Made by a program: the position numbers and the translations under genes. From the IMG/VR virus record IMGVR_UViG_3300014838_000015, positions 1 through 64,000 of that record: a stretch of 64,000 nt of DNA; one strand, given 5' to 3'. Positions within the stretch are counted from its first letter, which is position 1. Every line of letters starts with the position of its first letter. The DNA is from a virus. Under the pieces are notes generated by a model, which saw only the letters and a list, made by a program, of their open reading frames with translations, searched no databases and was not told where the DNA came from. Of this stretch, positions 5,718 through 36,500 are shown one piece after another.

Positions 5718-6077
5718 TGGTGGAGATGTCGGCATCCGAGAGCCGAGTCTACGACCTTTCCTCGAAAAAATTCTACAAGCTTAATCCTTCTGTTTGATCG
5801 TCCTAGGATGGGACTATGTGACCTGTTTTTCGTCGGATTCACAACACGACGTTTCGTTTTTACACCCGACGGTGTTTTTAGTGAATCGCTCCACCAGCGC
5901 TCGACTTGCTGTTCCTAGGTTGTCGAGTACCCGTTCCGTCAGGCCGCGTTAGCGAGCGAGACAGAGACGACGCCGTTATCGTTGGCAGTCAAACGTGGTC
6001 ACGTTTTTGTCGAGGTTCATAACCATCCTCGGCTTGCATTTCTTCAATTCTTCGCCGTATCGAATCCTTTCATCCCC
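5718..6077 (-). ncRNA. ssrA: tmRNA (transfer-messenger RNA)
   Basis: 5' GGGGATGAAAGGATTCGA and 3' CATCTCC-ACCA form a 7-bp acceptor stem with the G3:U alanine wobble and encoded CCA; T-stem TCGGC/GCCGA; internal tag frame 5986-5939 = ANDNGVVSVSLANAA*; length 360 nt. Confidence 0.95.
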
Positions 6078-6154
6078 ATATGGTGATCAGGAACGTTCCC
6101 TGACCAACAATAGTAACTATACCACCCACGAGCATCGCTTTGCACCGCAAGACG

Positions 6155-6388
6155 TTAACGTCGTTCAACGATCGAATCAAGGTGTTCTATCTTCTTCTTC
6201 TCACGCTTCATGAAGGCATCAAATTTATCACGAAACTCGCTGTCGTATGTTTTAACAGACTCAAGTGAGTCAACGATGCATGCTCGAACCTTTGCTAGCA
6301 CTGTTTCAGCTTCATCGGTCATTTCATCGTGCATCACCAACGTATCGTACAGAAACATCAATTCACCAGCGTTTAGATTGAGCTTCAT
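6155..6388 (-). CDS. Hypothetical protein
   Basis: 77-aa ORF with AGGA SD. Confidence 0.6.
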   Translation of the reverse strand: MKLNLNAGELMFLYDTLVMHDEMTDEAETVLAKVRACIVDSLESVKTYDSEFRDKFDAFMKREKKKIEHLDSIVERR

Positions 6389-6479
6389 TTGTTCATCCTT
6401 TTAACGATCAATGGCAGGATATCCTGCCACCAACCTTACAACTCACGGTGTCAAAAGTATATCAGCAAGCAAAATCCGC

Positions 6480-6782
6480 TTAGTATCGAAGGTCAGGCTC
6501 CGACAATCCAACAGCATCAAAGTGCTTGCGTAGAGCAAGAAACAACGTTCGAGCCTCGCGACCGTTGAATTCAAGCGTCGGATACCCAAACTCACGTCCC
6601 TCACAATCAATGAACAAACGAGTGCTGTTCATTCGTGGATTGGTTGAAATCGCAAGTTCAAGCGATCCGGGATCACGACGGGACGTCTCTGTTCGAACAT
6701 TACCGTTCTTATCTGACCGAACGATGACACGGGAATTGCTGTTCGTTGATCGTACCACTTTGCTACCTGTTTTCGTTCCCAT
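6480..6782 (-). CDS. Hypothetical protein
   Basis: Start moved to MGTKTG (AGGAG SD); promoter TTGTAC-17-TACTAT at 6851-6823. Confidence 0.6.
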   Translation of the reverse strand: MGTKTGSKVVRSTNSNSRVIVRSDKNGNVRTETSRRDPGSLELAISTNPRMNSTRLFIDCEGREFGYPTLEFNGREARTLFLALRKHFDAVGLSEPDLRY

Positions 6783-6940
6783 TTTCTCTCCTGGTTTGAT
6801 CGTTGATCGATCATGTAAAGAGATAGTACATTCGCACGCGCCTGTGTACAAACCGCCCCCGTTAAAAGACTTTGGCGTAACCTTGAGATATTAGATCACG
6901 CCAAATGAACGATTCCGTGGGCGGCCCGTGGGCAGCAAAA

Positions 6941-7378
6941 TCACGGCTTGAGCGTTACGCTACCGGAAACTGCACAGAGCAACCAACCCTTGCTATCAGA
7001 CCAAAACCCAACGGTTCCGCCCGCTGGAACCTGCAACTTGGTGCCGAGCGAAGAAGAAACCGTCTGAATTCCACCAGTACCAGGTACGTTCACGGCCATA
7101 GAACCGGAGATGAGGTACGGGTATTGACCAAGCGAATCAGTGATGAGAATGTCACCGCCCGGCCATGCCGAAGCCGCAGGAAGCGAACCGGTGAACAAAC
7201 CAGCACCGGCCGAACCGGTGACAGAAACGATGTAGAAACCAGGAGCGGGAATTTGAACAGCGCCGCTTCCAGCAGCGCCGAGAGGCAACATCACCTCAGC
7301 GGCCATCGCCGTCACACCGTTGATGGTTATGTTGTTGCTTCCATCATCTACAAAACCACGTTGATCGAGTGTAGCCAT
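6941..7378 (-). CDS. Gly/Ser-rich putative head decoration/structural protein
   Basis: GGAG SD, TACTTA motif at 7401-7406, composition typical of virion proteins. Confidence 0.5.
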   Translation of the reverse strand: MATLDQRGFVDDGSNNITINGVTAMAAEVMLPLGAAGSGAVQIPAPGFYIVSVTGSAGAGLFTGSLPAASAWPGGDILITDSLGQYPYLISGSMAVNVPGTGGIQTVSSSLGTKLQVPAGGTVGFWSDSKGWLLCAVSGSVTLKP

Positions 7379-7440
7379 GTTATGTCTCCCGCTTGAGACT
7401 TAAGTATGGACGATAACGAAGAAATCATTGAAGCATTAAT

Positions 7441-8322
7441 TCACAACTTCAACAGGAATATCTTGTGACCCGCACCCCACACGGGCCTGACGCCTGCTTC
7501 ATCAACGACCTGCTTCTCCGTCTTTCCAGGTTGAGCACGGTACTTGAAACGATCGAAACGCACTGCGCCGTCGGTGTACCAGTAGTTGACAGTTGTTTCA
7601 CCAACGTTCGTAAACCCACACTGATCGTAGACTCTGCCCGTACCGAACCTCAATTCAGCATACGATAGAATCCCATCAAACGCACGTTGTTTAGCATAGT
7701 CCTTGACGAACGACACCATCTTGCTAGAACCACCACGAACGGAAAAACCTGGTTTGAACGCAACTCGAGCTAGCTCACACACGTGACCCCACTTTTTCTG
7801 AATTGGCGTCCTGATCGTGACTGCGCCGACAATTCCATGCAACGGATGAACGAGAAGCATGTGGCCTGATGAACGCGTGGCACCCTGAACGTGCGATGAA
7901 TCAAGAAACGGTTTCGTCTCGAGCGCCGTGACCACATTCATCTCGCAGTCTCTGGCGTGGAGCTTCATCGGCGTTGAACCAAGCGCATTCGTGACAACTG
8001 ACCTACATACCGCTTCCTTCGCTCGCCATTCATCGCTGAAGAACTGCACGTACCTGACGTTCGCCGCACGTGACCTGACGAGCTTGTTCCTCAGGAAACC
8101 TCGATCATAGATCCCAGGACGGCCACCCATCAGGTCGTGTAGGTCAAAACCAACGTTCTTTGACGGCACCCATGCGTCGAACGTGAGGTCATCTGATGGT
8201 CCTGCTGAACGTTCAGCAACCAATCCAAGCGATGAAACGATCGACAACGCGGTGTTTGTGAAAGCATCCTGAACGGCAACGTCATCAAGGAAACACGGAT
8301 TCGCTTCTGCGGCATGTGACAT
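7441..8322 (-). CDS. Hef-like protein: degenerate PD-(D/E)xK domain plus Mom/GNAT-like C-terminal domain
   Basis: ARDC...FLDSSHVQG...ELARV...VRGGSSKM...ILSYAELRFGTGRVY..GF pattern; N-terminal DAWVPSKNVGFDLHD lacks the usual ExxGxYWH. Confidence 0.65.
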   Translation of the reverse strand: MSHAAEANPCFLDDVAVQDAFTNTALSIVSSLGLVAERSAGPSDDLTFDAWVPSKNVGFDLHDLMGGRPGIYDRGFLRNKLVRSRAANVRYVQFFSDEWRAKEAVCRSVVTNALGSTPMKLHARDCEMNVVTALETKPFLDSSHVQGATRSSGHMLLVHPLHGIVGAVTIRTPIQKKWGHVCELARVAFKPGFSVRGGSSKMVSFVKDYAKQRAFDGILSYAELRFGTGRVYDQCGFTNVGETTVNYWYTDGAVRFDRFKYRAQPGKTEKQVVDEAGVRPVWGAGHKIFLLKL

Positions 8323-8414
8323 GTGATGGTGAAAACTCCTGTATGAGATACCATTGTAACACGAAAGATGAGAAAGTTACACCATCACTCGCAATGTCGC
8401 TGATACGTTAGTGT

Positions 8415-10460
8415 TCAATCATCAATGGTAACAAATTCGGTATTTTTACTATGCTTACAAAGAACAACAAACCTCTCAACAACCTGTGCAGAATCGTTCT
8501 TTCTAGAAAAGTGATCACGACGAATGTTAACATCAATGTCAAGGTTTGAACAATGATCAAATCCAACGCTTTGCGCAGCATCAATGACAGTGTTAACAAG
8601 TTCGGCCGAAACATTGAATACGCACAGCTTGCCGCGCTTGAGACCCATCGACGCTGCCTCGAACGTCGGAACGAGGTAACCATTGATCCAATCATCGAAC
8701 GTTGGATGATCTCGCCAACACTGTCCTGGTTCATCAAAGTACTTCTCAACGTCAAAGTATGGCGGCGACGTGAAAACAAAGTCCAATGAATCAGGTTCAA
8801 TGGGATAGAACTCCGATCCAACGTTGTTCAATTCAAATTCAACGTTCGGCTTCAACTCACGTATCGCGTGTTTAACACGATCAGCGTCTGCATACATGCG
8901 TTTTGATGGATCGGTACCGATGTACATTCCACGATCGAACGTTGCAGCAAAACCCAACATTCTGGCAGAGAATCCAATGGATGGATCCCAGACGACAGGT
9001 TCACTAACGTCACCAATGAACTTTTTATAAATGAACGCTGCATACGATGGATTGAACCATGAAACTGCCTTGCGCTGCACGATGAACCCACGTCTGATAT
9101 TATGAAAATTGACATCGAACGTTTCGTTGGAAGTTATTCTTGTTCCGTCGCTCAACCTGTACGTGTAAGGCTTGCTGTTGTTCAGACCTAACCTGTACGA
9201 TAGAACCCTTGACAACGTCTTGTCGTTGAAGAACGTTTGCATTGGTCCATCATCAACGTCCCAGTACGATTTGATGAACGACTTCAACCACATTGAACTT
9301 GTAAGGTCAGATCCAAGCGTTCGAACGTCGCTGATAGACGATAGAGCGTCCTTCAGTATTCTTTCCGTAGGAGGATAGAACCAACCATGATATGCAACGT
9401 GTGCTCGTAGCAGCGACACGATCGCAGGTAGGTACAGCTTTCGAACGCGTTCCTTGTCGTTTATTCGCAGCAACGTCTCCCTCGAGACTATCGGAGCGTT
9501 CTCATCGAGACGCAACGTTGCTTCCTTCACAACGACACCATCGATCACAACGTGGTACGCCAACGTTACCAAATCATCGAATGATTCGATGCGTGATACA
9601 TCTGTACCCTCTGCGATGCGAAGCAACGTCAGCTTGTGATCGATGGCAAGTTTGTTCTTCAAGATGTCGTTCGCGATGTTCGTGATCTGTATAAGCGAGA
9701 AGTCGCTGTGCTTACCTATGCCATGATAGAACATGCCGTCGAACTCAACGATCGCGCGCTGCGTTGGAAGCCACACATCTGCACACCACGTACGTTCGGT
9801 GAAGTTGAAGTACTTTGAACCAACGGCATCTGGAAAGACGCGAATGATAGAACCAAGAAACGCCGTCTCCTTCTTCGAAGAACGGTTGAGCTTGCGACGC
9901 ATGTTTGCGAGCGAGATCTTCCTGCCGAATTCCTTTGTGAAGACGGTGCTACGACGAATTTTACCTGCTTCGCCTTGCCACGACACAAGCTGCGACATAT
10001 GAAATTTAGCGATCCTTTCAGGGTTCTGCCAACCACGAACATGACCGTTGATGAGACATTGCTTCTTTTCTACGTCCATGAATGCATTCATCACTGATTC
10101 GCTGATCTTCACTGATATTTCTGCACCACGTTCAGCGTATGCTTTTCTGATCATATCGTTACGATGTGCAATTTGTTCAGGCGTTTGCTTATAACCATTT
10201 CTTGTAAATCCACCTGCATCATTGTGCCCATTCACATAATCGTTGAATTTATACCTTACGTTGTGCCATTCAACGTTCTCGCTACAACCACACTTGCACA
10301 ATGGTGTATTTCCGTCTAGCAAGTGCTTGATTACGTAACCCTTGAGGTGACCTAGATCCTTATGCGATCGAGCAACGTGGTTTCCCAACGAACGCCTGTT
10401 GACACACTTCCTGCCACATTCAAAACATGTCTGTTCGACGTCGTCTATACCTGCACCCAC
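8415..10460 (-). CDS. C2H2 zinc finger / DUF559(Vsr)-like nuclease / amino-DNA methyltransferase fusion
   Basis: CFEC...H...H and CKCGC; ADVWLP...IVEFDGMFYHG; motif I-like WDPSIGFSAR, YIGTDP; motif IV FTSPPYF. Start placed at GTG 10460 by analogy with the paralogous start at 11355. Confidence 0.8.
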   Translation of the reverse strand: MGAGIDDVEQTCFECGRKCVNRRSLGNHVARSHKDLGHLKGYVIKHLLDGNTPLCKCGCSENVEWHNVRYKFNDYVNGHNDAGGFTRNGYKQTPEQIAHRNDMIRKAYAERGAEISVKISESVMNAFMDVEKKQCLINGHVRGWQNPERIAKFHMSQLVSWQGEAGKIRRSTVFTKEFGRKISLANMRRKLNRSSKKETAFLGSIIRVFPDAVGSKYFNFTERTWCADVWLPTQRAIVEFDGMFYHGIGKHSDFSLIQITNIANDILKNKLAIDHKLTLLRIAEGTDVSRIESFDDLVTLAYHVVIDGVVVKEATLRLDENAPIVSRETLLRINDKERVRKLYLPAIVSLLRAHVAYHGWFYPPTERILKDALSSISDVRTLGSDLTSSMWLKSFIKSYWDVDDGPMQTFFNDKTLSRVLSYRLGLNNSKPYTYRLSDGTRITSNETFDVNFHNIRRGFIVQRKAVSWFNPSYAAFIYKKFIGDVSEPVVWDPSIGFSARMLGFAATFDRGMYIGTDPSKRMYADADRVKHAIRELKPNVEFELNNVGSEFYPIEPDSLDFVFTSPPYFDVEKYFDEPGQCWRDHPTFDDWINGYLVPTFEAASMGLKRGKLCVFNVSAELVNTVIDAAQSVGFDHCSNLDIDVNIRRDHFSRKNDSAQVVERFVVLCKHSKNTEFVTIDD

Positions 10461-10486
10461 ATCAAGACTATACACCACGTTATTGT
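10449..10486. repeat. 38-bp direct repeat (copy at 11344-11381, 33/38 identical) containing the -10 box and start codon
   Basis: Core ATCAAGACTATACACCAC identical in both copies. Confidence 0.85.
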
Positions 10487-10491
10487 AGCGT

Positions 10492-11355
10492 TCACCCTTC
10501 TTTTGGTTCCCACTCGGCATACTTCCAACCATTCTCATCGCAATAACGTATCGCTGCCTCTCTTTTAGCAACATTCATCGGAATGTCACGCATCGAACGT
10601 GGCTTGATTTCAACGAGACATTGCGATCCATCAACGTACGTTACGTGTACGTCAGGTACATAGTGCCTTGATTTGCCGTCTAATTCATATGGTATAGAAG
10701 TGAATTCCGATTCATATGTTGCAACGTTTTGATCGTTGTCTAACAGCTTGAAGTATTTGAGTTCATACGACGACCTGTACACATATCGTTTACCCGTCTT
10801 TGTCGAATCATGAAATCCTTTCGTCCAATTGAATGAACAATCAACGTACATCGATGCGATCGTCTCTGATATCTTTTTTGAATTGATGGTAAGCTCGCCT
10901 GAAGCGATCATTTTGCTTCTAGTCACGCTGATTTTATCACGGGTCTCTTGACTCATGATCTTTGATGTCATGTGTTCAGAAACTAGCTTTGCAAGCTCTG
11001 GATGTGCTTTATGATATGCTTTAGTGGCAATCGATCGTTTTTCATTTGATTCAGCTGATTGTTTCTTGCCTTTAACGGCTTTTGAAATTCTAAAACGAGT
11101 AAGTTCAGATTTATTGTAAACAGATTTAGGAATATGCGTTTTTCTATACGTCATGAATTTGCCGCTGAAATAAGAAACTTCCTCGCCACAACCACATGCA
11201 CACGTTGGCACAACGCCGTTAAATTCATACTTCACAACGTAATCTTTGAATAAAAGATTATGCATATGCGAAACGTGATATGATAATCCCTTACGATCAT
11301 CGAATGAACGATTACACACCACGCAAGTTACGCGTTGTTTAACACCTGCTTCCAT
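10492..11355 (-). CDS. Zinc finger + NUMOD3 + TnsA/gp4-like endonuclease (putative free-standing homing endonuclease)
   Basis: CVVC..H..H, CACGCG, SQETRDKIS-type repeats, YRSSYE...IPY...HYVPD...EIKP. Confidence 0.75.
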   Translation of the reverse strand: MEAGVKQRVTCVVCNRSFDDRKGLSYHVSHMHNLLFKDYVVKYEFNGVVPTCACGCGEEVSYFSGKFMTYRKTHIPKSVYNKSELTRFRISKAVKGKKQSAESNEKRSIATKAYHKAHPELAKLVSEHMTSKIMSQETRDKISVTRSKMIASGELTINSKKISETIASMYVDCSFNWTKGFHDSTKTGKRYVYRSSYELKYFKLLDNDQNVATYESEFTSIPYELDGKSRHYVPDVHVTYVDGSQCLVEIKPRSMRDIPMNVAKREAAIRYCDENGWKYAEWEPKEG

Positions 11356-11422
11356 ATCAAGACTATACACCACATTATGGTGGTATTCATAACGATAACA
11401 AATAAAATAAATTGTTAAACGA

Positions 11423-11448
11423 CGAAAGGCCCCAAGAGGGACCTTTCG
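11423..11448 (-). terminator. Hairpin terminator after the major capsid gene
   Basis: CGAAAGGTCCC-TCTT-GGGGCCTTTCG followed by a T-rich tract on the minus strand. Confidence 0.65.
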
Positions 11449-11493
11449 AGAATCATCCAACCATGTAAGTGGTTGAAATCATTGAACGAATAA

Positions 11494-13386
11494 TTAAATC
11501 GTATTCATATCCAATATAGTAACAGTTCCGTAGAAGTCTGTGCGAACCATCTTTTTCCCGTACCTTGTCATTACGCCCTTCCTGGGTGTAAAATCTTCAG
11601 GAGCGAAGATCGTCGGAGTCACAATCAATGGAACGTACGGACTGTATACGTACCCAGTCTCGAGGTAGCTTCCGCCCTTGAATCCAACGAGGATTCTGTT
11701 CCGTGCAAAGTACGGATCCTTGTACACCGTGAAGCGGTTGCTTAGAGTACCAATGGCTTCCGCACCGATGGTGAACGGAGAACCGACCTGTCCTTCGCCG
11801 TCGAGCGAGAACTTCGGCTTGTAGAGCACCGAGGACTCGAGGATGGTTGCAACGTCCGGACCGGTGACCATGAAGTTCGCCGAACCACGTAGCGTCTTGC
11901 GGTGAATGGTGTTCGCAACGTCGATGATCGTCTCGATCAACGTTTCGTACCACTCGCGGACCGTACCGGTGAACTGCGGACCGATGCTCAACGAGGTGTT
12001 GAGGACGACCGGCACGCCGGTGAGCTTGTTGACGAACTTACCAGGAGCGCGGCTCCAGTACATGTTCGCACCGTTTGCCTGAGTGACCAGATCATTGAGA
12101 ATCTCTCGATCGATCTCAAGGGCAATCTGTTCAGAGAGGATGCTCGTGAGCTCGACCTCTGCGTCCATCGAGTGGTACGCATTGAGGTCCTGTGCCAGCT
12201 CGGGGCTCCACCGTGCACGCAGCTTTCGCGTTGTTGCAACGATGGCAATCGACTCGATCTTGATGTCGATCTCTGGGATCGCCGGTGTCGGATTGACGCT
12301 GAAGTCAGACTCGAAGGACGGAATCGTCAGCGTTGCACCATCGTCAGCCTGAACGGTGATGCCGTCGGCCGTAGCCATGGAGATGAATGCCTTACCAGCA
12401 TTAAAGGTCGGGGTCGTTGCTCCGGAGAGCTTGATGACAAGCTGAACCTGCGAACCGTTGAGCGGCGCCGCGGTGAAGTTGGAACTCGTCCAGTTACCGC
12501 GCTTGTTGAGGCGTCGGAGGTTAAGGAGACCCGTACCGGTTTGGTACGTTTGCGTCCATGCCTGCGAATTGTCTGTCGAGGAGAAGGTGAACAGTGCGAC
12601 CTGCTCGATTGCCATCAGATCACCGGTCGGGATCGCTGCCTGAATGTCAGAGGTATTGAGGTAAACGAAGGTGACACCGTAAACGCTGTTCGACTGCAGA
12701 TCAACGTCCAACTGCGGATCGAAGTTGCAAAGCTGACCGTTCACACCGGACATCGCCGTGACGATGCCGCCGGCAACGAACGTACCGTTAGTGTTGTTCC
12801 ATGCACCGATCTGAGCGTTGCTACCGGTGACAGATCCGGAGACCTGAACCTTGGTGTAACCAACGTTGACGAGATCGTACATACCACCGGTTGCGAGAGA
12901 CCCAGACTGAATTCCCTTGCCAGTCGGGTTATTGTAGATGGACTGCCCAGCGGTGTACGTCGACTGAGCGCTACCGTTCGGTCCGCTGAGCTGCAACCCG
13001 GACTGACCACCAACGTTGCTACCGTAGGTGTAATCGAGGTAGAAGATCAGTCCTGAAGGAAGGCTCATCGGCTGAATGCTTACGAGCTCGTTGGCAACGA
13101 GGCCACCGAACACTCGACGAACGATCGGGAACGCGATATTCGTGAAACCCTGAATCTGACCCGACGAAGCAACGTTTCCGCCACCGGTCGAGATGCTGTT
13201 GCCAGCCTCTTTGAGCACCTGAGCCGCCTGGTTCTCCAGGAGCTGAGCCATGGTCTCGCGCTTGACGCCATCGAGACCACGAAGCAGGCCGGTGCGGCTC
13301 CACTTCTCAACAAGCCGCGTGCGCTCTGCACCAACGTGCCTGTCTTTAATTCCAGCAGCGAGCTGGTCCATCGTAAAGTACTTCAT
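11494..13386 (-). CDS. gp23: Major capsid protein, T4 gp23-like (630 aa, with a large central insertion)
   Basis: LLENQ, PIVRRVF, VSIQPMSLPSGLIF, TRKLRARWSPELAQDL.AYH..DAE.EL, EIDREI, YSPYVPL, F.P.KG..TRY; start at MKYFTM with GGAG SD. Confidence 0.97.
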   Translation of the reverse strand: MKYFTMDQLAAGIKDRHVGAERTRLVEKWSRTGLLRGLDGVKRETMAQLLENQAAQVLKEAGNSISTGGGNVASSGQIQGFTNIAFPIVRRVFGGLVANELVSIQPMSLPSGLIFYLDYTYGSNVGGQSGLQLSGPNGSAQSTYTAGQSIYNNPTGKGIQSGSLATGGMYDLVNVGYTKVQVSGSVTGSNAQIGAWNNTNGTFVAGGIVTAMSGVNGQLCNFDPQLDVDLQSNSVYGVTFVYLNTSDIQAAIPTGDLMAIEQVALFTFSSTDNSQAWTQTYQTGTGLLNLRRLNKRGNWTSSNFTAAPLNGSQVQLVIKLSGATTPTFNAGKAFISMATADGITVQADDGATLTIPSFESDFSVNPTPAIPEIDIKIESIAIVATTRKLRARWSPELAQDLNAYHSMDAEVELTSILSEQIALEIDREILNDLVTQANGANMYWSRAPGKFVNKLTGVPVVLNTSLSIGPQFTGTVREWYETLIETIIDVANTIHRKTLRGSANFMVTGPDVATILESSVLYKPKFSLDGEGQVGSPFTIGAEAIGTLSNRFTVYKDPYFARNRILVGFKGGSYLETGYVYSPYVPLIVTPTIFAPEDFTPRKGVMTRYGKKMVRTDFYGTVTILDMNTI

Positions 13387-13445
13387 CTGCGTTTTTCTCC
13401 GTTTTGTAAAAGTTGATTGATTCGTTACCTGTTCACACAGCACCA

Positions 13446-15407
13446 TCACTTGACGATGCCAGCGAGCTGCGCCCATCGATCGGTCTCGACACCCTCGTTG
13501 AGGGTCTGCGTCGACGCCGGCTTATTGACCCTGCTCGAAGAACCGATGACCTGACGACGATCAACGCCTTCCTGCAGAGATTTCGAGGGACTCGCAATTG
13601 TCTTGACGAGGCTCTCGTAGACGAGCTTTGCTTCCCGCACCGTGTGGGCTTCGTCCAACTGCTTGATGACCTGCGATTTCTGCTTGGCCGTCAATTCAGA
13701 TTGTAGAAGCTTGTTGGTGTAGAGCAGCTTCGCGTTGAACAGATTCGATTCTGCCAACTTGGTGCGGAGCGTTCCGATGGCCTTGTTCTCCGCGGGCCGT
13801 GATGCAGCGCTATTCGAGCGCGACTCCTGAAGCTTTTTCGAGGCCTTGGCCGCGATGAGCGACATTTTCTTTCCGCGAGCGAGCGATTCATTGTATCGCT
13901 TAGCTAACGTATTGAACTCTTTCTTCGCTTCCGTGAAGCGTTTGGTATTGCCAGACGCCTTAGCGCGCGATGCTTCACGTTTGATGGCGACAGCACGCAC
14001 GGTGGCTCGCTCCTGAAGCTTCTTCTCGAAGTTCAACCTGCGAAGCGCCTCGTGACGTCGTTTATCCCACGTTGCGGTCTCGTGACCATCAGAAACGTCG
14101 GTACCATACTCATCCTGCTTGCGTCGATTCTGTAATTGATCGAGGTCTTCGCCACACGCTTCCTCGAGATCATCATCGTCGGACTCGTCAAGGTCCTGAT
14201 CGTCCTGTTCCTCAAGGTCCTGATCATCAGATTCACCCAACGGACGAGATGCAATTCCAGGCGATAGATCAGTGATTTCCTGATCGCGTGGATCTCCCTC
14301 TTCCTTGCCATCACCAAAGTCAGCAAGAATCTCAGAATCACCTGGACCATTGCCCCAAGAATCAGGCTTCGTTTCCTCACGAAGCGAACGCAAACGAGCG
14401 ATCTCTCGACGAAGCATTCCCTCATCAATTTCAACGATCGTATCGTCGCTCAATCTTCGTCCTTCCATCTGCTGATCCTCCTCATCGGCCATCTGATCAT
14501 CTCCATCGACGGCATAATCATCGAGACCTTCAGGCGCCTCTTCATCACCGCCTCCCATGTCCTCGAAACCCTCAGCACCTTCCTCATCCTCTTCACCGGT
14601 GATGAGATCGACACCGACATTCTCGAGATCGTCCTCAACATCATCAGGAAGCCCAGTCAGCTTCAGCGTGAGATCTGCTTCGGTCATCTTTTTCTTGGAC
14701 ATTGTCGTTGACTCCTGGAGTTTGTTGAGAACTTTGAAACTAGCTTCAAGCGCGTTCTCGTATGAGCTCTTCTTAGCAGGATCAGTTATCGACTCCTGCA
14801 CGTGGTCATACATATCTTCCACACGAGAAATCATTTGCGTAACATGCACACCGTACGCCGGTGTTTCCTTCACGATCTTGCTAGCCTTATTAAACAATGA
14901 AACGCTTTCGGTGATTTTTTCAATTGCACCACCAATATTGATAGGTTTATTGACCACTGATCTCAGCGCATCAACCGATTCAAGGCTTATCTCATACTCA
15001 TCGTCTGATTTCGGCATAGGTTCGCCGAACATCGGCGGAGGTACTGCAGGACCAGGTACGTTTCTAGGCATTCCATCAGCGGACGAATTACCAGCACACA
15101 TCGTATCGATGTCTAACGTTACCTTTCCTTCTGCGTCAGGTGAAGTCACGCATGCATCAGAACCATCCATTACAACCCCTGAGCCGTCATCAGTGAGCAT
15201 TTCACCGCCCATTTCGGTGGCTACAGGTGCAACAGAAACTCGATCCATCTCGTCACCTTCAGCGTCCTCCTGAAGAATTGCACGATCAATGAACTCACGA
15301 ATTCGCGGAGTGACAGCTTCAGTGAGAGCGCGCAGCGCATTTTCCTCAGCGACTTGCTTCACCCTCTTAACGTCAGCCAGCGCTTCCTCAAACAATTGCT
15401 TGGTCAT
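13446..15407 (-). CDS. Prohead scaffolding/core protein (gp22-like)
   Basis: Immediately upstream of the capsid gene; acidic coiled-coil; many LxE sites; C-terminal RWAQLAGI. Confidence 0.8.
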   Translation of the reverse strand: MTKQLFEEALADVKRVKQVAEENALRALTEAVTPRIREFIDRAILQEDAEGDEMDRVSVAPVATEMGGEMLTDDGSGVVMDGSDACVTSPDAEGKVTLDIDTMCAGNSSADGMPRNVPGPAVPPPMFGEPMPKSDDEYEISLESVDALRSVVNKPINIGGAIEKITESVSLFNKASKIVKETPAYGVHVTQMISRVEDMYDHVQESITDPAKKSSYENALEASFKVLNKLQESTTMSKKKMTEADLTLKLTGLPDDVEDDLENVGVDLITGEEDEEGAEGFEDMGGGDEEAPEGLDDYAVDGDDQMADEEDQQMEGRRLSDDTIVEIDEGMLRREIARLRSLREETKPDSWGNGPGDSEILADFGDGKEEGDPRDQEITDLSPGIASRPLGESDDQDLEEQDDQDLDESDDDDLEEACGEDLDQLQNRRKQDEYGTDVSDGHETATWDKRRHEALRRLNFEKKLQERATVRAVAIKREASRAKASGNTKRFTEAKKEFNTLAKRYNESLARGKKMSLIAAKASKKLQESRSNSAASRPAENKAIGTLRTKLAESNLFNAKLLYTNKLLQSELTAKQKSQVIKQLDEAHTVREAKLVYESLVKTIASPSKSLQEGVDRRQVIGSSSRVNKPASTQTLNEGVETDRWAQLAGIVK

Positions 15408-32528: not shown

Positions 32529-33134
32529 CTACTTCACTTTTTGTTTCTTTTGCTTCTTCACAACAACGATTGGACCACAAATTGATGCCGCTCTCGCAAC
32601 TACGTATGCATCCGTGGTATCGTAACTACGATCAACGGGTTCACCATTTTTCTTTAGTTCCCAAGCAACGTGTTTCAGATCATGTTCGCGCATGTGCTTG
32701 AAAACCTGAGATTTCTGTGGTCCGCCAAGAGCGGTTTTTAGTAGTTTGATTCCACAAAGCTTTCTTGCGTGTCCAGAACCAATATATTCAGGTTCCTTCT
32801 GAAAAACGTTGCGAGCAACGTAGCTAACAATGCCATTGAACTTCATCAACGTTGAAATTGTCATAGCAGACGACATACCCGGTCTAAACGACATCAATGC
32901 TTCTTCAAGAACGATGCGATCCAGCATAATTTCTAACCCATTGGAACTGAGCATTTTTTGAAAAAAACGTACTACGCAATCAGCCTTTTCAAACAACGTC
33001 TTTTTGCCCTTGGTGAAATCAACAGAATCAAGCAACAATATGTGACTTCCCTTGTCATCAGGTACAACTTCAGAATCGACGATGGCCACGCCCATAACGC
33101 TCGTTGAAACGTCAAGTCCTAAGATAGTGCTCAT
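32529..33134 (-). CDS. RuvC-like Holliday junction resolvase
   Basis: ILGLDVSTS..G, IVLEE, K..V, DTTDAY. Confidence 0.8.
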   Translation of the reverse strand: MSTILGLDVSTSVMGVAIVDSEVVPDDKGSHILLLDSVDFTKGKKTLFEKADCVVRFFQKMLSSNGLEIMLDRIVLEEALMSFRPGMSSAMTISTLMKFNGIVSYVARNVFQKEPEYIGSGHARKLCGIKLLKTALGGPQKSQVFKHMREHDLKHVAWELKKNGEPVDRSYDTTDAYVVARAASICGPIVVVKKQKKQKVK

Positions 33135-33180: not shown

Positions 33181-33582
33181 CTACTTCAAGAGACCAAGAA
33201 CCTTCAACTCGTTCTCAGTGATCACGACCAGGGCGGTTTGGTGGGCACTACACCACTCCCGTGCAGCGTTTAGCTTCTTTACCACGTTCGCCTGCGTGAC
33301 ACGCTTCGAAGGTTTGATTTCAACAATGGCATGCGTATCATCAACGTACGTTAGTAAAAAATCAGGATAATACTTCCGAATTTTCCCAGTTCTAACGTTG
33401 CTCACATATGGTATGATGACGCTCTCATATGACCATGTCAAAATCGATGGTTCGCCATCAAGATATTGCATATACGATAATTCCCAGCCACTCCTATACT
33501 TGCACGTCAATCCGGTTTTTAACGATGTGTAAATTCCTGTGTGATAGTGACCACGACGCTTCTTTCGTCTACGTTTCTTCAT
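33181..33582 (-). CDS. gp4-like head completion / TnsA-like nuclease
   Basis: YRSGWE, WSYE..IPY, YYPDF, EIKP, K..AA..WC, ITE.EL. Confidence 0.8.
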   Translation of the reverse strand: MKKRRRKKRRGHYHTGIYTSLKTGLTCKYRSGWELSYMQYLDGEPSILTWSYESVIIPYVSNVRTGKIRKYYPDFLLTYVDDTHAIVEIKPSKRVTQANVVKKLNAAREWCSAHQTALVVITENELKVLGLLK

Positions 33583-33583
33583 G

Positions 33584-36500
33584 TTAAAAATCAAACTTGC
33601 ACTTGAACATAATTGCATCGCCTTGTCTCTTTGCAATTGGCTGCGCCAGTGATGTTTTTAAAACAACGTTTAGATCCTTATCGTGAAAATTAATGTTTGA
33701 CACATATACAAACTTATTTTCAGGATCGTTCGGATAACCAGTCGGAGGCAACGGTAAATAACACGGATTGCTTGATGAATTCAATTGATTGCTTGGCGCA
33801 AGCGCATCAAGCTTCATGACGTGAACGTGTTGCTCACCACGCATGTACATTGACCACTGGTTCTGACCGAAAAAGTACAAGTGCGGGCTCTTAATGATCG
33901 CCAATCCCTCATCGTAGTACAAATTTCCGACGGAATTCCACGTTGCCTGTGTCGTCAAACAATCTGCGCGGTAAACGTTTCCTCGTCCATCGTCGGCAAG
34001 TTTGATGCGAATGGGCCCCGATTTAGGCGTCATATTCGATCCGAGAAGGCTTGACTGCAACAAGTCTTGATCGCTGACCGTAAACGTCGTCGGACTGATC
34101 CTGAATCCGTAGAACATGTTGCTAGCGTCGAACACAACGACCTCGTTCGATGATGGATCCTGCGTACGTTGATACACCGTGAGAGGTGCACCTGCCTCCA
34201 CATCGCTTCCTGACTGTACAGTGTTGATGTAGTTCGACATCGCCGGACCTGTATTCGCGAACGGCGTTTCGGGTGTCGCACCTATCTGAATGTTAGCGAA
34301 CTCGTTCACGTCTGCATCAGGTTGCGAACCATCATCAAACGTACCTGCACCAAACATCAACGTTGTCGGTGAAACCATGTTATCGAGACCAATGAAGCTC
34401 AGTTCGTCTATTCCAAGATCGTCGATGGCACGAACGAGGCTCTCTGATTGCAGGTATTGAAAGCTAGGAACGAAGTTACCATCATCACATGGTAGGATCG
34501 TTAGGTTACGCTTAGCAACGAACGGTTGCGAATACAGAAACTCATTGCACGTCTCTGCTTCCGGAGTCGATGACTGCAACGCAACGCCGGTGAGATGGTG
34601 AAGCATTGGAAATTGCTTTGCCGCAAAATCCTTGACAAAGTTCTCTAGGTTGATGTAGTGACCTGCAACGCCAAACGATAACGCAACGCTGAACGGAGTG
34701 TACGTCGTACCATCAACCTCCTCAAACGGTGTGACCAACAACCCGCCGTGATCATCGACGAACTGTCTATACGGCGATTGTTCAACGAAGAACGGTGGCA
34801 CAAAGAACGCAAACGTCTTATCAAGAAAAACTGGTCCAATCGACGATGACGTAGCGATATCGAGGTCGGAAAGGTAACACGTCCTGAACGAAACGTTGTG
34901 CAGCTCAGCGTTCAACGGATGATTGAATGCATACGATGGAGGCGTTTCTATCGTAGCGGTATCATCGGCAAGAAGAACGTTTAGACCATCACGTGTCGCT
35001 GGATCGGTCGCAAAGAACATTGCCTGAGCGTTCGCCGTATTATTCGAACCCTCGTAGAAGTTACCCAAGCATAGAACGTCAGGATCCTCTTGCACAACAT
35101 CAACGGGTTTATCATCAGACCACCGCGATAGATCAAACGATGTCGGAGAGATAGAACTGCATGGAACAACGAACGAACCAACGTCTGTGCCATCAACGTT
35201 GAAGGTGCCTGAACCGTGATTTATGAGGTTGGTTCCCCATCTAACAACAACGTGGTGCCAGTGATTGTGTTGCAGAACGTTATCGTTAGAAATGAACACC
35301 ATGCTGCTAGACGGGTACTGAATCACGCTATCAATGTTACGATACGTGCCAAACGGGGCATTCACGTGAATGCCCCCAGAACTATCCTGTAACACGTACG
35401 ATGGAGGAATGTCAGCTGAACAACTCAACTGCAACTGCAACCTGAAACCAGACGTTCGACCGTTCACGTCCTTCGCTGAACCGCTGATCAACGATAACGC
35501 AAACGTCGATGAAAGGTGCATGATGCAACCAGGTTTGAACGAACCGTTTTGTTCATCTGGTTGATAGCGTGGGTTGATATAGAAATCAAAGCTCCAGCTT
35601 GTCAATGGCGTGTAAACACCAACATTGACATTTTTAGTTGGAATGTTTGGGTACAACAAAACAGATGATTCAGGAACGACTGACGCGGTGAAGAAATTCA
35701 ATGCATTGTAGTTCGTGTACGCATAGTGTGCGGTCGGATACGAAACCCTGTAGTACGGATTTAGTTGGTCCTTGATCGTCAACTTCCTCAACGTATTGCT
35801 GTTGAACAACGGTGGAGGAGAAAAGATGTTGATATCCAACGTTTCAGCTAGACGAGCGGCTTGAGGCTGCGTAGCACAACCGATCATGTATTGATCAATG
35901 ATTGATGTGAAATCTGGTTGCAAATCAGACGTTAGAAACGTAAAAGTGCTGGCCTCTGGAGTCAAGAACGTACCCACGCTTGACGGAGCAAATCCTGAAG
36001 GAAACGTGTAAAAAGCTGGTGTCAAAGGAGACGACAAACTCTCTGGATATGAAACGGATTCAAGATTGATGTACTTCGAAAACACAGGACCCGACGTCAG
36101 CGTCGTCGAACCCACTACGGTGGGTAACACCGCGTGAGATACAGTGTCAGTCAACAAACCCGTCAACGTTGTTGCCATAGACGAAAAGTAGTTGTTCGTC
36201 AATCCTGTAACGTTGATTCTAGACAAACTCTGCGCTTCCTGAGCGATCTGTGACGGCGTCAACGCCGTGTTTGCCCACAACGACACCTCGCAAACATCGA
36301 CGTTGTAACCAGTTTCATCAAAATAATAATATGCACTAGAATTTGACGAAATTCCCGTTGCTAACGTAACGCTTGATGGAACATGACCAGCAAGTCCATA
36401 ATACAATGTTAAATTTCCGCCGATCGTTCCAACGATTGCGATGTAGTTCCAAACACCAGGCACCGTGATTGGTGAACCATAAGTGTACTGCGTACCAGCG

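What the first reader, a model, noticed from the sequence alone, without database searches (positions are those of the whole stretch)
7441..11381. Three-gene nuclease/modification island wedged behind the major capsid gene
Seen: ZnF-NUMOD3-TnsA-like nuclease, ZnF-DUF559 nuclease-methyltransferase and a degenerate-nuclease/Mom-like protein in tandem, each with its own -35/-10 promoter-like element, separating the capsid gene from a probable decoration gene. Inference: either stacked homing elements at a hotspot, or a phage restriction/self-modification system assembled from homing-endonuclease parts (cut unmodified competitor or host DNA, protect self).
Basis: partly seen in the sequence, partly recalled or inferred. 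Interest (0 to 1): 0.72.

Follow-up and report, generated by a model that had tools for sequence, protein, structure and literature searches.

The report
Stacked homing-endonuclease genes behind capsid gene
Three selfish DNA-cutting genes have piled up in a variable slot just behind the major capsid gene of an uncultured peat jumbo phage; two also carry a DNA-modifying domain, and one of those has lost its cutter and kept only the modifier.

Summary

- **P3** (10492-11355): zinc finger plus an intact TnsA/gp4-type nuclease.
- **P2** (8415-10460, GTG start): zinc finger, Vsr-like (EDxHD-type) nuclease and SPPY DNA methyltransferase.
- **P1** (7441-8322): a truncated Hef-like protein. It lacks the DNA-binding head, and its nuclease motif is eroded. 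The Mom-like domain is intact.

About 100 related viral contigs show that the gap between the capsid terminator and the next conserved gene is a hotspot. It holds zero to three such genes in many combinations. None of 42 unbiased relatives has this trio. So this is a stack of independent homing elements, not one three-gene system.

P2 and the Hef family share one zinc-finger/nuclease chassis (hhalign 98.7%). They end in different DNA modifiers. In this slot I found no copy of that nuclease without a modifier in the same locus. Modifier-only forms are common.

This fits single-gene cut-and-protect elements, an idea already published for nuclease-Mom fusions in jumbo phages. The nuclease-methylase fusion appears undescribed in papers. 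This scan noted it earlier on other DNA.

No enzyme activity, target site or modification was tested.

The parts
11494..13476 (-). Major capsid protein gene (T4 gp23 type), the conserved gene whose 3' flank is the hotspot
   Evidence: Pfam Gp23 4e-77. About 100 relatives at 40-80% identity were fetched with it.
11417..11447 (-). Capsid-gene terminator: 10-bp GC-rich hairpin plus GTCGTTT tail. The island begins downstream of it.
   Evidence: Read from the sequence. The same hairpin with (C)CTTTCGTCGTTT follows the capsid gene in nearly all relatives, with or without inserted genes. A metatranscriptome contig over the capsid gene stops at 11443.
11475..11495 (.). Left copy of a 21-nt imperfect direct repeat (18/21), directly after the capsid stop codon
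   Evidence: the repeat finder family D11. Its partner is at 7421-7441. The match is unremarkable by similarity alone; only its placement at both island borders is notable.
11344..11389 (-). 46-nt upstream element of P3 with TATAGT, six bases, then ATG. Candidate promoter giving a leaderless or near-leaderless mRNA.
   Evidence: 83% identical to 10449-10494. The proteins behind the two copies are only 29% identical. Similar TGGTATAAT-N5-7-ATG sits in relatives.
10492..11355 (-). P3: zinc finger, weak NUMOD3 and a TnsA/gp4-type PD-(D/E)xK nuclease. Free-standing homing-endonuclease type, motifs intact.
   Evidence: Pfam TnsA-like_N 53.6 bits against cutoff 26.5. NCBIfam TnsA_like 1.2e-12. Its nuclease domain is 43% identical to the phage's own gp4-like gene at 33181-33636. 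PD...EIK is visible in the translation.
10449..10494 (-). Second copy of the 46-nt upstream element, ending in the GTG start of P2. It overlaps the P3 stop codon.
8415..10460 (-). P2: zinc finger, helical linker, Vsr-like (EDxHD-type) nuclease, linker domain and SPPY amino-methyltransferase
   Evidence: More than 100 full-length database clusters at 35-52% identity. E198, D228, D241, H246, D265 and DPS.GF / S565, P567 of SPPY are invariant (P566, Y568 in at least 90%). AF2 model pLDDT 87.7. Methyltransferase fold Z 19.4 to Trm11.
9561..9875 (-). P2 nuclease core (aa 196-300), with alpha-beta-beta-beta-alpha-beta secondary structure
   Evidence: Secondary structure of the model. Invariant residues. 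Homologous to the Hef-family nuclease (hhalign 98.7%).
8415..9023 (-). P2 methyltransferase core (aa 480-681): motif I VWDPSIGF, motif IV TSPPY
   Evidence: The nearest cultured-phage hits are annotated N-4 cytosine DNA methylase.
8353..8361 (-). TGTTACAAT, an extended -10-like element upstream of P1
   Evidence: Read from the sequence. An RNA contig covers 8199-8334.
7441..8322 (-). P1: truncated Hef-like protein. Zinc finger, NUMOD3 and zinc ribbon are absent, the nuclease remnant is eroded and the Mom-like GNAT domain is intact.
   Evidence: Alignments A2 and A3. Foldseek top hit Mu Mom 8bv8, E 1e-6. Counterparts of Mu Mom residues R111, S124, D149, R151, Y159 are present.
8023..8193 (-). 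P1 nuclease remnant (aa 44-100): ...FDAWVPSKNVGFDLHDLM--GGRP. The upstream Glu and the 'WH' histidine of intact relatives are missing.
   Evidence: EDxHD residue roles are from PMC3239194.
7444..7980 (-). P1 Mom-like domain (aa ~115-293)
7421..7441 (.). Right copy of the 21-nt flanking repeat, directly after the P1 stop codon
7401..7407 (-). ATACTTA motif upstream of the 145-aa gene. Candidate late promoter that belongs to the resident downstream gene.
   Evidence: (G)ATACTTA(C) precedes the first gene after the capsid gene in relatives without inserted genes.
6941..7378 (-). 145-aa gene (P0) bounding the island. Function unknown.
   Evidence: No Pfam or PHROG hit. Homologues sit directly after the capsid gene in L011, L013, L030. 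An RNA contig covers 7078-7381.

Best explanation
The island is a stack of three independently acquired, free-standing homing-endonuclease-type genes. They sit in a hypervariable slot between the capsid-gene terminator and the next resident gene. All three lineages are built on one N-terminal DNA-binding chassis: a C2H2 zinc finger, a Cys cluster and NUMOD3-type motifs.

- P3 adds a TnsA/gp4-type nuclease.
- P2 adds a Vsr-like (EDxHD-type) nuclease and an SPPY DNA methyltransferase. Both look intact.
- P1 descends from a Hef-type gene (chassis, Vsr-like nuclease, Mom-like GNAT). It has lost the chassis and key nuclease residues but keeps the Mom-like domain, so it is an orphan modifier.

Inferred mechanism, none of it shown here: in mixed infections P3 and P2 cut related phage genomes near the 3' end of the capsid gene. 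Repair from the carrier genome then copies the endonuclease gene and nearby capsid markers across. The methyltransferase of P2 and the Mom-like domain of P1 mark the phage's own DNA. That would spare it from the cognate nuclease and probably from host restriction. This would explain why modifiers outlive their nucleases.

Shown here: gene structure, domain homology, conserved catalytic residues, presence/absence variation and the fixed position behind the capsid gene.
For: Hotspot:
- Of 42 non-redundant relatives anchored on the capsid gene, 22 have at least one chassis gene in the slot and 20 have none. None has the window's trio.
- The distance from the capsid stop to the next conserved gene runs from 289 to 7656 nt.
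- Searches started from P2 or from P1 also land just behind a capsid gene in most loci, in some down to 40% capsid identity.
- Hef-like genes also adjoin the capsid gene in Tenacibaculum phage PTm1 and E. coli phage RPN226. T4 segD lies between genes 23 and 24 (PMC2988022).

Shared chassis:
- P3 against P2 N-termini, BLASTP 2e-12.
- P2 family against Hef family over zinc finger to nuclease, hhalign 98.7%, E 2e-16.

Intact enzymes:
- P2 nuclease and methyltransferase residues are invariant across 35 to 95 homologues.
- P3 scores above the Pfam cutoff.

P1 as orphan modifier:
- Intact relatives read D..IExHGLYWH, while P1 reads GFDLHDLM with the WH deleted.
- Five database clusters at 56-67% identity share this short form and a common N-terminus.
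- The Mom residues are kept and Mu Mom is the top structural hit.

Coupling of nuclease and modifier:
- Of 51 Vsr-like nuclease places in the fetched loci, 44 have Mom or the methyltransferase downstream in the same locus. Two are cut by contig ends. Five are a different architecture elsewhere.
- The same methyltransferase module is also fused to NUMOD4-HNH_3 heads.

Mobility: the Hef tree is decoupled from the capsid tree (Mantel r 0.05).

Literature: Hef-type proteins belong to the Vsr-like EDxHD homing family (PMC3239194). Nuclease-Mom fusions in jumbo phages have been predicted to act as restriction plus protection (PMC7824862).
Against: - No cleavage, methylation or momylation was tested. 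No target site is known.
- Vsr-like homing endonucleases without any modifier exist: L104, L107, L109, L110 and I-Bth0305I. The nuclease type therefore does not need a modifier.
- P2-family divergence tracks capsid divergence weakly (Mantel r 0.42, p 0.03). That fits a long-resident gene better than a frequent invader.
- The island shows no presence/absence variation within this phage population. Three DNA runs hold it at 99% identity or more, and no contig skips it. Contigs cannot show rare variants.
- Direct sequence or fold matches of the P2 nuclease to Vsr or I-Bth0305I are weak or absent.
- The methyltransferase fold is closest to tRNA methyltransferases, so a DNA substrate is inferred only from Pfam and phage homologues.
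Confidence: 0.72

Rival explanations
1. Fusion by accident. The methyltransferase, and likewise Mom, is an ordinary resident anti-restriction gene of the slot behind the capsid gene. Homing-endonuclease genes that land next to it have merged with it by loss of the gene boundary. Nuclease and modifier have no functional link, and the modifier protects only against host restriction.
For: Stand-alone methyltransferase genes and forms without a nuclease occupy the same slot: L068, L072, L096, L099, P0117, P0107. The methyltransferase tree weakly follows the capsid tree. An earlier follow-up of this scan on another genome preferred this reading (e1-4042024). Vsr-like homing endonucleases without a modifier exist.
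Against: The full-length fusion is old and stable: more than 100 clusters at 35-52% identity, with both active sites invariant. Fusion recurred with unrelated HNH heads. The same chassis carries Mom in a sister family. No chassis-plus-Vsr-nuclease gene in the slot lacks a modifier in its locus, 0 of 44, although TnsA-type genes always do.
Confidence: 0.3
2. One coordinated three-gene phage restriction/self-modification system. P3 and P2 are the cutters. The P2 methyltransferase and P1 Mom protect the phage's own DNA, and the genes depend on one another.
For: All three sit in tandem on one strand. P3 and P2 share a near-identical 46-nt upstream element. L092 repeats the TnsA-then-nuclease-methylase order. 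L068 holds nuclease, Hef and methylase together.
Against: None of 42 unbiased relatives has the trio. TnsA-type, Hef-type and nuclease-methylase genes each occur alone many times.
Confidence: 0.07
3. The Vsr-like domain of P2 is a repair nickase that serves its own methyltransferase, as E. coli Vsr serves Dcm. It is not a homing nuclease.
For: vsr overlaps dcm in E. coli (established knowledge). Two family members weakly hit Pfam Vsr.
Against: The methyltransferase is an SPPY amino-methyltransferase, not a C5 enzyme, so there is no T:G deamination product to repair. The nuclease sits on a zinc-finger/NUMOD chassis shared with Hef, a family reported as homing endonucleases (PMC3239194). The gene lies in a presence/absence hotspot.
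Confidence: 0.04

Closest known systems
Hef-type / EDxHD (Vsr-like) homing endonucleases: Hef of T4-related phage U5, I-Bth0305I (PDB 3R3P)
   Same: Full-length relatives of P1 have NUMOD-type DNA-binding motifs and a Vsr-like nuclease. Cultured-phage homologues of P1 are annotated 'Hef-like homing endonuclease'. P2 keeps the E, D, H, D residues in the same order. They are free-standing genes next to conserved phage genes.
   Different: P1 has lost the DNA-binding head and two of the five motif residues. P2 carries an added C-terminal methyltransferase that no described member has. I-Bth0305I has no modifier domain and is intron-encoded.
Nuclease-fold plus Mom fusions of jumbo phages, predicted as restriction plus momylation (Iyer et al. 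2021, PMC7824862)
   Same: The same architecture as the intact relatives of P1, and the same proposed logic of cutting others and modifying self.
   Different: That paper does not mention the homing context, the capsid-flank hotspot, the nuclease-less orphan forms or a methyltransferase sister family (one search found no such text).
Phage Mu Mom (tRNA-dependent glycyl transfer to adenine N6; PDB 8bv8, PMC13219725)
   Same: GNAT fold, with Mu Mom as the best solved match. Residues matching R111, S124, R151, Y159 are kept, and D149 is Glu.
   Different: 14% identity. Pfam Mom is below cutoff for P1 itself. P1 has a ~110-aa N-terminal nuclease remnant. Substrate, co-substrate and the role of the HTH-like insertion are untested.
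T4 free-standing homing endonuclease genes (seg, mob), e.g. segD between genes 23 and 24
   Same: Selfish nuclease genes sit in intergenic slots next to essential late genes and vary among relatives (PMC2988022).
   Different: Different nuclease folds (TnsA-type and Vsr-type, not GIY-YIG or HNH), a zinc-finger head, up to three stacked copies, and modifier domains.
Single-chain Type IIG/IIL restriction-modification enzymes (e.g. MmeI)
   Same: P2 joins a PD-(D/E)xK-type nuclease to an amino-methyltransferase in one polypeptide.
   Different: This resemblance rests on my own knowledge, not on a test here. P2 has a homing-type zinc-finger head and no recognisable matching target-recognition domain. 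It is phage-borne at a homing hotspot.
T4 gp4 head-completion nuclease (TnsA-like)
   Same: The P3 nuclease domain is 43% identical to the phage's own gp4-like gene. PHROG 'head closure' hits at 1e-17.
   Different: P3 has a ~190-aa zinc-finger/NUMOD head and is sporadic among relatives. gp4 is a core gene.

Membership tests
Free-standing homing endonuclease genes | Sporadic presence or absence at one fixed locus among related genomes | tested here: met
   22 of 42 relatives carry at least one chassis gene in the slot and 20 carry none. Combinations vary.
Free-standing homing endonuclease genes | Intact site-specific nuclease with a separate DNA-binding module | tested here: met
   Met at motif level only. 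P3 has PD..EIK with a zinc finger. P2 has invariant E198, D228, H246, D265 with a zinc finger. P1 does not meet it.
Free-standing homing endonuclease genes | Cuts the allele that lacks the gene near the insertion site and spreads by gene conversion | not testable with these tools
   Needs enzyme assays or phage crosses.
Free-standing homing endonuclease genes | Gene tree decoupled from the tree of the neighbouring host gene | tested here: inconclusive
   Mantel test against the capsid protein: Hef r 0.05 (not significant), TnsA type r 0.35 (p 0.10), methylase family r 0.42 (p 0.03). Samples are small, 9 to 14.
EDxHD / Vsr-like homing endonucleases | Composite motif E...D...x...H...D (Vsr E25, D51, H64, H69, D97; PMC3239194) | tested here: met
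   P2: E198, D228, D241/E239, H246, D265 are invariant or nearly so, in that order. P1 keeps D49 and the later Asp but lacks the Glu and the His, so P1 does not meet it.
EDxHD / Vsr-like homing endonucleases | Detectable sequence or fold match to Vsr or I-Bth0305I | tested here: inconclusive
   Pfam Vsr in 2 of 35 family members, best E 0.01. The profile search of PDB sequences did not list 3R3P or 1VSR. Fold searches were filled by the methyltransferase domain. The nuclease domain was not folded alone.
DUF559 (PF04480) | Match to the Pfam model | tested here: not met
   No PF04480 hit for P2 at E 0.1 or below, nor among the 25 listed of 40 families hit by 35 relatives at E 1 or below.
Mom family (PF25680) | Pfam model at gathering score | tested here: inconclusive
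   P1 scores 23.8 bits against cutoff 27.1. Full-length relatives L079 (33.4) and L065 (28.7) pass. Close short homologues P0122, P0123, P0125 carry precomputed PF25680.
Mom family (PF25680) | GNAT fold closest to Mu Mom | tested here: met
   Foldseek rank 1 is 8bv8, E 9.9e-7, TM(target) 0.59. Other GNATs follow closely. Model pLDDT 85.8.
Mom family (PF25680) | Residues needed for activity in Mu Mom: R111, S124, D149, R151, Y159 (PMC13219725) | tested here: met
   hhalign pairs them with P1 R186, S200, E222, R225, Y232. The alignment probability is low (10.6%, E 0.003). The S124 column is not invariant among relatives.
Mom family (PF25680) | HTH-like insertion (Mu Mom 175-209) and use of Gly-tRNA on dsDNA | not tested
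   The alignment ends at Mom residue 179. Chemistry needs experiments.
N6/N4 amino DNA methyltransferases | Motif I (FxGxG-like) and motif IV (S/D/N)PPY on a Rossmann fold | tested here: met
   VWDPSIGF and TSPPY are invariant. Pfam N6_N4_Mtase in 29 of 35 members, best 2e-9. Fold Z 19.4 to Trm11, which has a (D/N)PPY motif by my knowledge.
N6/N4 amino DNA methyltransferases | DNA, not RNA, is the substrate | not testable with these tools
   The closest solved folds are tRNA methyltransferases. The closest annotated phage homologues are N4-cytosine DNA methylases.
TnsA-like / gp4 nuclease (PF08722) | Pfam model at gathering score and a PD-(D/E)xK motif | tested here: met
   P3 scores 53.6 bits against 26.5. 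YVPDV...VEIKP is in the translation.
Multi-gene restriction-modification system (the three genes as one unit) | Components co-occur across genomes | tested here: not met
   0 of 42 unbiased relatives have the trio, and each type occurs alone.

The most novel reading that the evidence does not exclude
The shared zinc-finger/Vsr-nuclease chassis with a C-terminal DNA modifier (SPPY methyltransferase in P2, Mom-type GNAT in Hef proteins) is a class of self-immunising homing endonuclease. The modifier marks the carrier genome at the nuclease's own sites, so the element can keep an uncut target beside itself and attack any unmarked co-infecting relative. When the nuclease decays, the modifier survives as an orphan, as P1 has. 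This would also explain the old report, recalled from memory because the paper is not held here, that Hef cuts its own phage's DNA in vitro.
Probability: 0.3. Interest if true: 0.8.

Novelty: new variant of a known kind. Interest (0 to 1): 0.55.

Why it matters
Free-standing homing endonucleases must avoid cutting the genome that carries them. The known answer is sequence change at the target site.

A homing nuclease that carries its own DNA modifier would be a second answer. It would blur the line between homing elements and restriction-modification systems.

It would also place Mom-type adenine hypermodification and a new methyltransferase family in phage-against-phage competition, not only in escape from host restriction.

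The families are large, with more than 100 protein clusters. They are tied to one easily found landmark, the capsid gene. They can be tested with cell-free expression and synthetic target DNA, without culturing the phage.

If the modifiers are only resident anti-restriction genes, the locus is still a clear case of a homing hotspot with repeated gene fusion and decay.

Tried and rejected
- The contexts of database homologues of P2 and P1 could therefore not be read. I used the search for related loci on viral contigs instead.
- **Cultured phages.** Megablast of the island against cultured phages found nothing. P2 has no full-length homologue in cultured phages. Only one uncultured 484-kb record matches, plus distant methylase cores.
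- **DUF559.** The label was not confirmed.
- **P2 nuclease domain.** A profile search of PDB sequences gave no Vsr or I-Bth0305I hit. Fold searches of the whole P2 model were filled by the methyltransferase domain.
- **Promoters.** The sigma-70 consensus scan is at chance level.
- **Base composition as a clock.** The contig averages 44.5% GC with sd 4.4. P3 at 40%, P2 at 46% and P1 at 53% are all unremarkable, so composition gives no order of arrival.
- **L068.** I looked for a duplicated piece flanking the Hef gene that sits between nuclease and methylase there. BLASTP found none.
- **Population variation.** I looked for reads or contigs that skip the island and found no joints. These are contigs, so rare variants cannot be excluded. 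No RNA contig covers P2 or P3, which is not evidence of silence.
- **The 21-nt flanking repeat as a relic of the capsid gene's end.** The window's copy matches the capsid-end consensus at only 8 of 15. The link rests on a chain of similarity through L020 and L092, and I do not claim it.
- **Literature.** No paper was found that describes homing-endonuclease-methyltransferase fusions or links Hef to Mom by name. The original Hef paper (PMC1275590) is not held.

Full report
**What the window is.** The window is the first 64 kb of a 101-kb IMG/VR viral contig judged about 29% complete. It is probably a jumbo phage of the T4 type: its major capsid protein hits Pfam Gp23 at 4e-77. Nearly identical DNA occurs in peat, permafrost and freshwater metagenomes released from 2018 to 2025.

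**The observation.** All genes around the finding are on the minus strand. In order they are:
- the capsid gene (13476 to 11494)
- a hairpin terminator (11447 to 11417)
- P3 (11355 to 10492)
- P2 (10460 to 8415)
- P1 (8322 to 7441)
- a 145-aa gene, P0 (7378 to 6941)

P3 carries a C2H2-type zinc finger, a sub-threshold NUMOD3 and a TnsA-like nuclease above the Pfam cutoff. Its nuclease domain is 43% identical to the phage's own stand-alone TnsA-like gene at 33181-33636. That gene is the T4 gp4 head-completion type described in PMC7824862.

P2 starts with a domain paralogous to the P3 head (BLASTP 2e-12). It continues through a helical region to a D..ExDG..H nuclease core. It ends in a methyltransferase with motif I VWDPSIGF and motif IV TSPPY.

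P1 hits PHROG families named homing or HNH endonuclease, but only their C-terminal parts. It hits Pfam Mom weakly.

The observation therefore stands, with four corrections:
- 'DUF559' is not supported by Pfam.
- The P2 start is GTG 10460, judged from homologue N-termini.
- The promoter claim does not survive a plain consensus scan. It is supported instead by a conserved 46-nt element shared by P3 and P2 and by TGGTATAAT-N5-7-ATG in relatives.
- The 'decoration' role of P0 is untested.

**The slot is a hotspot.** I fetched 80 loci with the capsid protein and mapped the window's domains onto them.
- Among 42 non-redundant relatives with at least 2.5 kb downstream, 20 have no such gene. In some the capsid gene runs straight into P0 or into the homologue of the 123-aa gene at 6480-6851.
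- The other 22 have one or more zinc-finger genes.
- The distance from the capsid stop to that anchor gene ranges from 289 to 7656 nt.
- TnsA-type genes occur alone (L019, L034, L039, L045, L074). Hef-type genes occur alone (L033, L046, L065, L079). The nuclease-methylase type occurs alone (L044, L085-L087, L093, L095).
- Mixed stacks also occur: L024, L031 and L114 have TnsA then Hef. L092 has TnsA then nuclease-methylase. L068 has nuclease, Hef and methylase as three genes.
- None of the 42 has the window's trio.

Searches started from P2 or from P1 end up directly behind a capsid gene in most loci. In several of these the capsid protein is only 40-55% identical.

Hef-like genes of the cultured phages PTm1 and RPN226 also adjoin the capsid gene. 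T4 segD lies between genes 23 and 24 (PMC2988022).

The capsid terminator is conserved whether or not genes are inserted, and the inserted genes begin 40 to 100 nt after it.

**One chassis, several warheads.** Full-length relatives of P1 (alignment A2) contain, in order:
- a C2H2 finger
- a Cys cluster
- two NUMOD3-like motifs (Pfam NUMOD3 up to 5e-9)
- a zinc ribbon
- a nuclease with D..IExHGLYWH
- a Mom domain that passes the Pfam cutoff in L079 and L065

Taylor et al. place Hef-type proteins in the Vsr-like EDxHD homing family (PMC3239194).

A profile-profile comparison shows that the P2 family and the Hef family are homologous from the zinc finger through the nuclease (98.7%, E 2e-16). They differ in the C-terminal modifier: methyltransferase against Mom. 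P3 shares only the head and carries a different nuclease.

**P2 is a member of a large, conserved family.**
- The database search returned more than 100 full-length clusters at 35-52% identity and about 97% coverage.
- Across 35 to 95 of them the nuclease residues E198, D228, D241, H246, D265 are invariant. So are the methyltransferase motifs.
- The AF2 model is confident (pLDDT 87.7). It shows an alpha-beta-beta-beta-alpha-beta nuclease core and a Rossmann methyltransferase.
- The methyltransferase is closest in fold to Trm11 and TrmN (Z 19.4). In sequence it is closest to phage N4-cytosine DNA methylases.
- The same methyltransferase module is also found fused to NUMOD4-HNH_3 heads, to a zinc finger alone, or standing alone.

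**P1 is an orphaned modifier.**
- P1 lacks the finger, NUMOD3 and ribbon. Its nuclease motif reads GFDLHDLM, with the WH histidine deleted and the upstream Glu gone.
- This is not a one-off wreck. Five database clusters at 56-67% identity have the same short form, the same eroded motif and a shared new N-terminus..FLDDPxVQ...
- Other short forms have eroded the motif in different ways.
- The Mom part is well kept. Mu Mom (8bv8) is the best solved match.
- The residues shown to matter in Mu Mom (PMC13219725) have counterparts R186, S200, E222, R225, Y232 (a low-probability alignment).
- A metatranscriptome contig covers the 5' end of P1.

**How it probably works.** The evidence supports three independent homing-type elements. 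For the nuclease-modifier fusions there are two readings, functional coupling and accidental fusion.

In favour of coupling:
- Of 51 Vsr-like nuclease places in all fetched loci, 44 have Mom or the methyltransferase in the same locus. Two are cut by contig ends. Five belong to a different architecture elsewhere.
- Modifier-only derivatives are common in both families, while chassis nuclease-only genes were not seen in the slot.
- Fusion with the methyltransferase recurred with HNH heads.

This asymmetry is what restriction-modification logic predicts. It matches the published prediction for nuclease-Mom fusions (PMC7824862).

Against coupling:
- Vsr-like homing nucleases without modifiers exist.
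- The methylase tree weakly follows the capsid tree.
- An earlier follow-up of this scan on another genome preferred simple gene-boundary loss.

I put the hotspot-stack reading at about 0.7 to 0.8 and the self-protection step at about 0.3 to 0.4.

**Other details.**
- A 21-nt imperfect repeat sits right after the capsid stop and again right after the P1 stop. Its similarity alone is at noise level. Only its placement is suggestive.
- In 12 relatives a near-exact second copy of the last four capsid codons plus the stop follows the true stop. Most of these are genomes that carry an inserted gene. This hints that the 3' end of the capsid gene is the site of action.
- Within this phage population the island is fixed as far as contigs can show.

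**Novelty.** Stacked free-standing homing genes next to capsid genes are known, as are Hef-type nucleases and nuclease-Mom fusions. I found three things in no paper:
- the sister family with a methyltransferase on the same chassis
- the stable nuclease-less Mom lineage
- the depth of the link to the capsid gene's 3' flank

This scan had already noted the nuclease-methylase fusion and the twin-modifier chassis on other DNA.

Noticed in passing
L031, L034, L042, L043, L045, L051, L057, L063, L090, L092, L108 and L037 (first 20 nt after the capsid stop): A second, near-exact copy of the last four capsid codons plus the stop follows the true stop by 1-3 nt, for example ...ATGAATATCATATGA C ATGAACGTCATCTGA. 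It matches at 11 of 15 or better, and at 13 of 15 or better in seven loci. The background rate for 11 of 15 or better is 0.9%. Of the 13 loci at 10 of 15 or better, 11 have a zinc-finger nuclease gene within 400 nt. It may be a scar of homing-driven exchange at the capsid 3' end.
   Followed up: partly
window 33181-33636 (-) and 32529-33134 (-): A stand-alone TnsA-like gene (T4 gp4 head-completion type) is followed by a RuvC-like gene. The start of the RuvC-like gene also has TATAGT, five bases, then ATG with no Shine-Dalgarno sequence. The same arrangement occurs at 67248 (+) of the contig. It is possibly a small class of leaderless genes.
   Followed up: partly
window 7401-7407 and relatives L003, L005, L009, L011, L013, L062: (G)ATACTTA(C) precedes the first gene after the capsid terminator in relatives without inserted genes, and precedes P0 here. 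It is a candidate late-promoter motif of this phage group.
   Followed up: no
L068 11026-15000 (same contig as L097): Zinc-finger Vsr-like nuclease (388 aa), zinc-finger Hef-type gene (471 aa) and methyltransferase (451 aa) lie as three separate genes. A Hef gene thus sits between the two halves that are fused in P2. No duplicated sequence flanks it.
   Followed up: partly
L116 6760-8831: A mosaic lies behind a capsid gene that is 74% identical: a P2-type finger and linker fragment, a TnsA fragment, then a zinc-finger Mom gene. It looks like a graveyard of earlier inserted genes.
   Followed up: no
L104, L107, L109, L110 (ORFs of 247-351 aa): A different Vsr-like nuclease architecture: zinc ribbon, several ERYGVE-type repeats, then ..QFDGVYWHGLDRP, with no modifier domain and not behind the capsid gene.
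   Followed up: no
P0115, P0116, P0120 (802-834 aa database proteins): NUMOD4, HNH_3 and an HTH head are fused to the same linker-plus-SPPY methyltransferase module as in P2. This is an independent fusion of a homing-type nuclease with this methylase.
   Followed up: partly
window 6000-13600: In one peat metatranscriptome, contigs cover the capsid gene (ending at 11443, in the terminator hairpin), the 5' part of P0 and the 5' end of P1. None covers P2 or P3. DNA runs from peat and freshwater (2020-2025) hold the island at 99% identity or more.
   Followed up: partly
LR756508.1 171901-177374 (uncultured 484-kb phage record): This is the best cultured-collection match for both the capsid protein and P2. 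The P2-like gene lies about 2.4 kb after the capsid gene, so the arrangement extends to a megaphage-sized genome.
   Followed up: no
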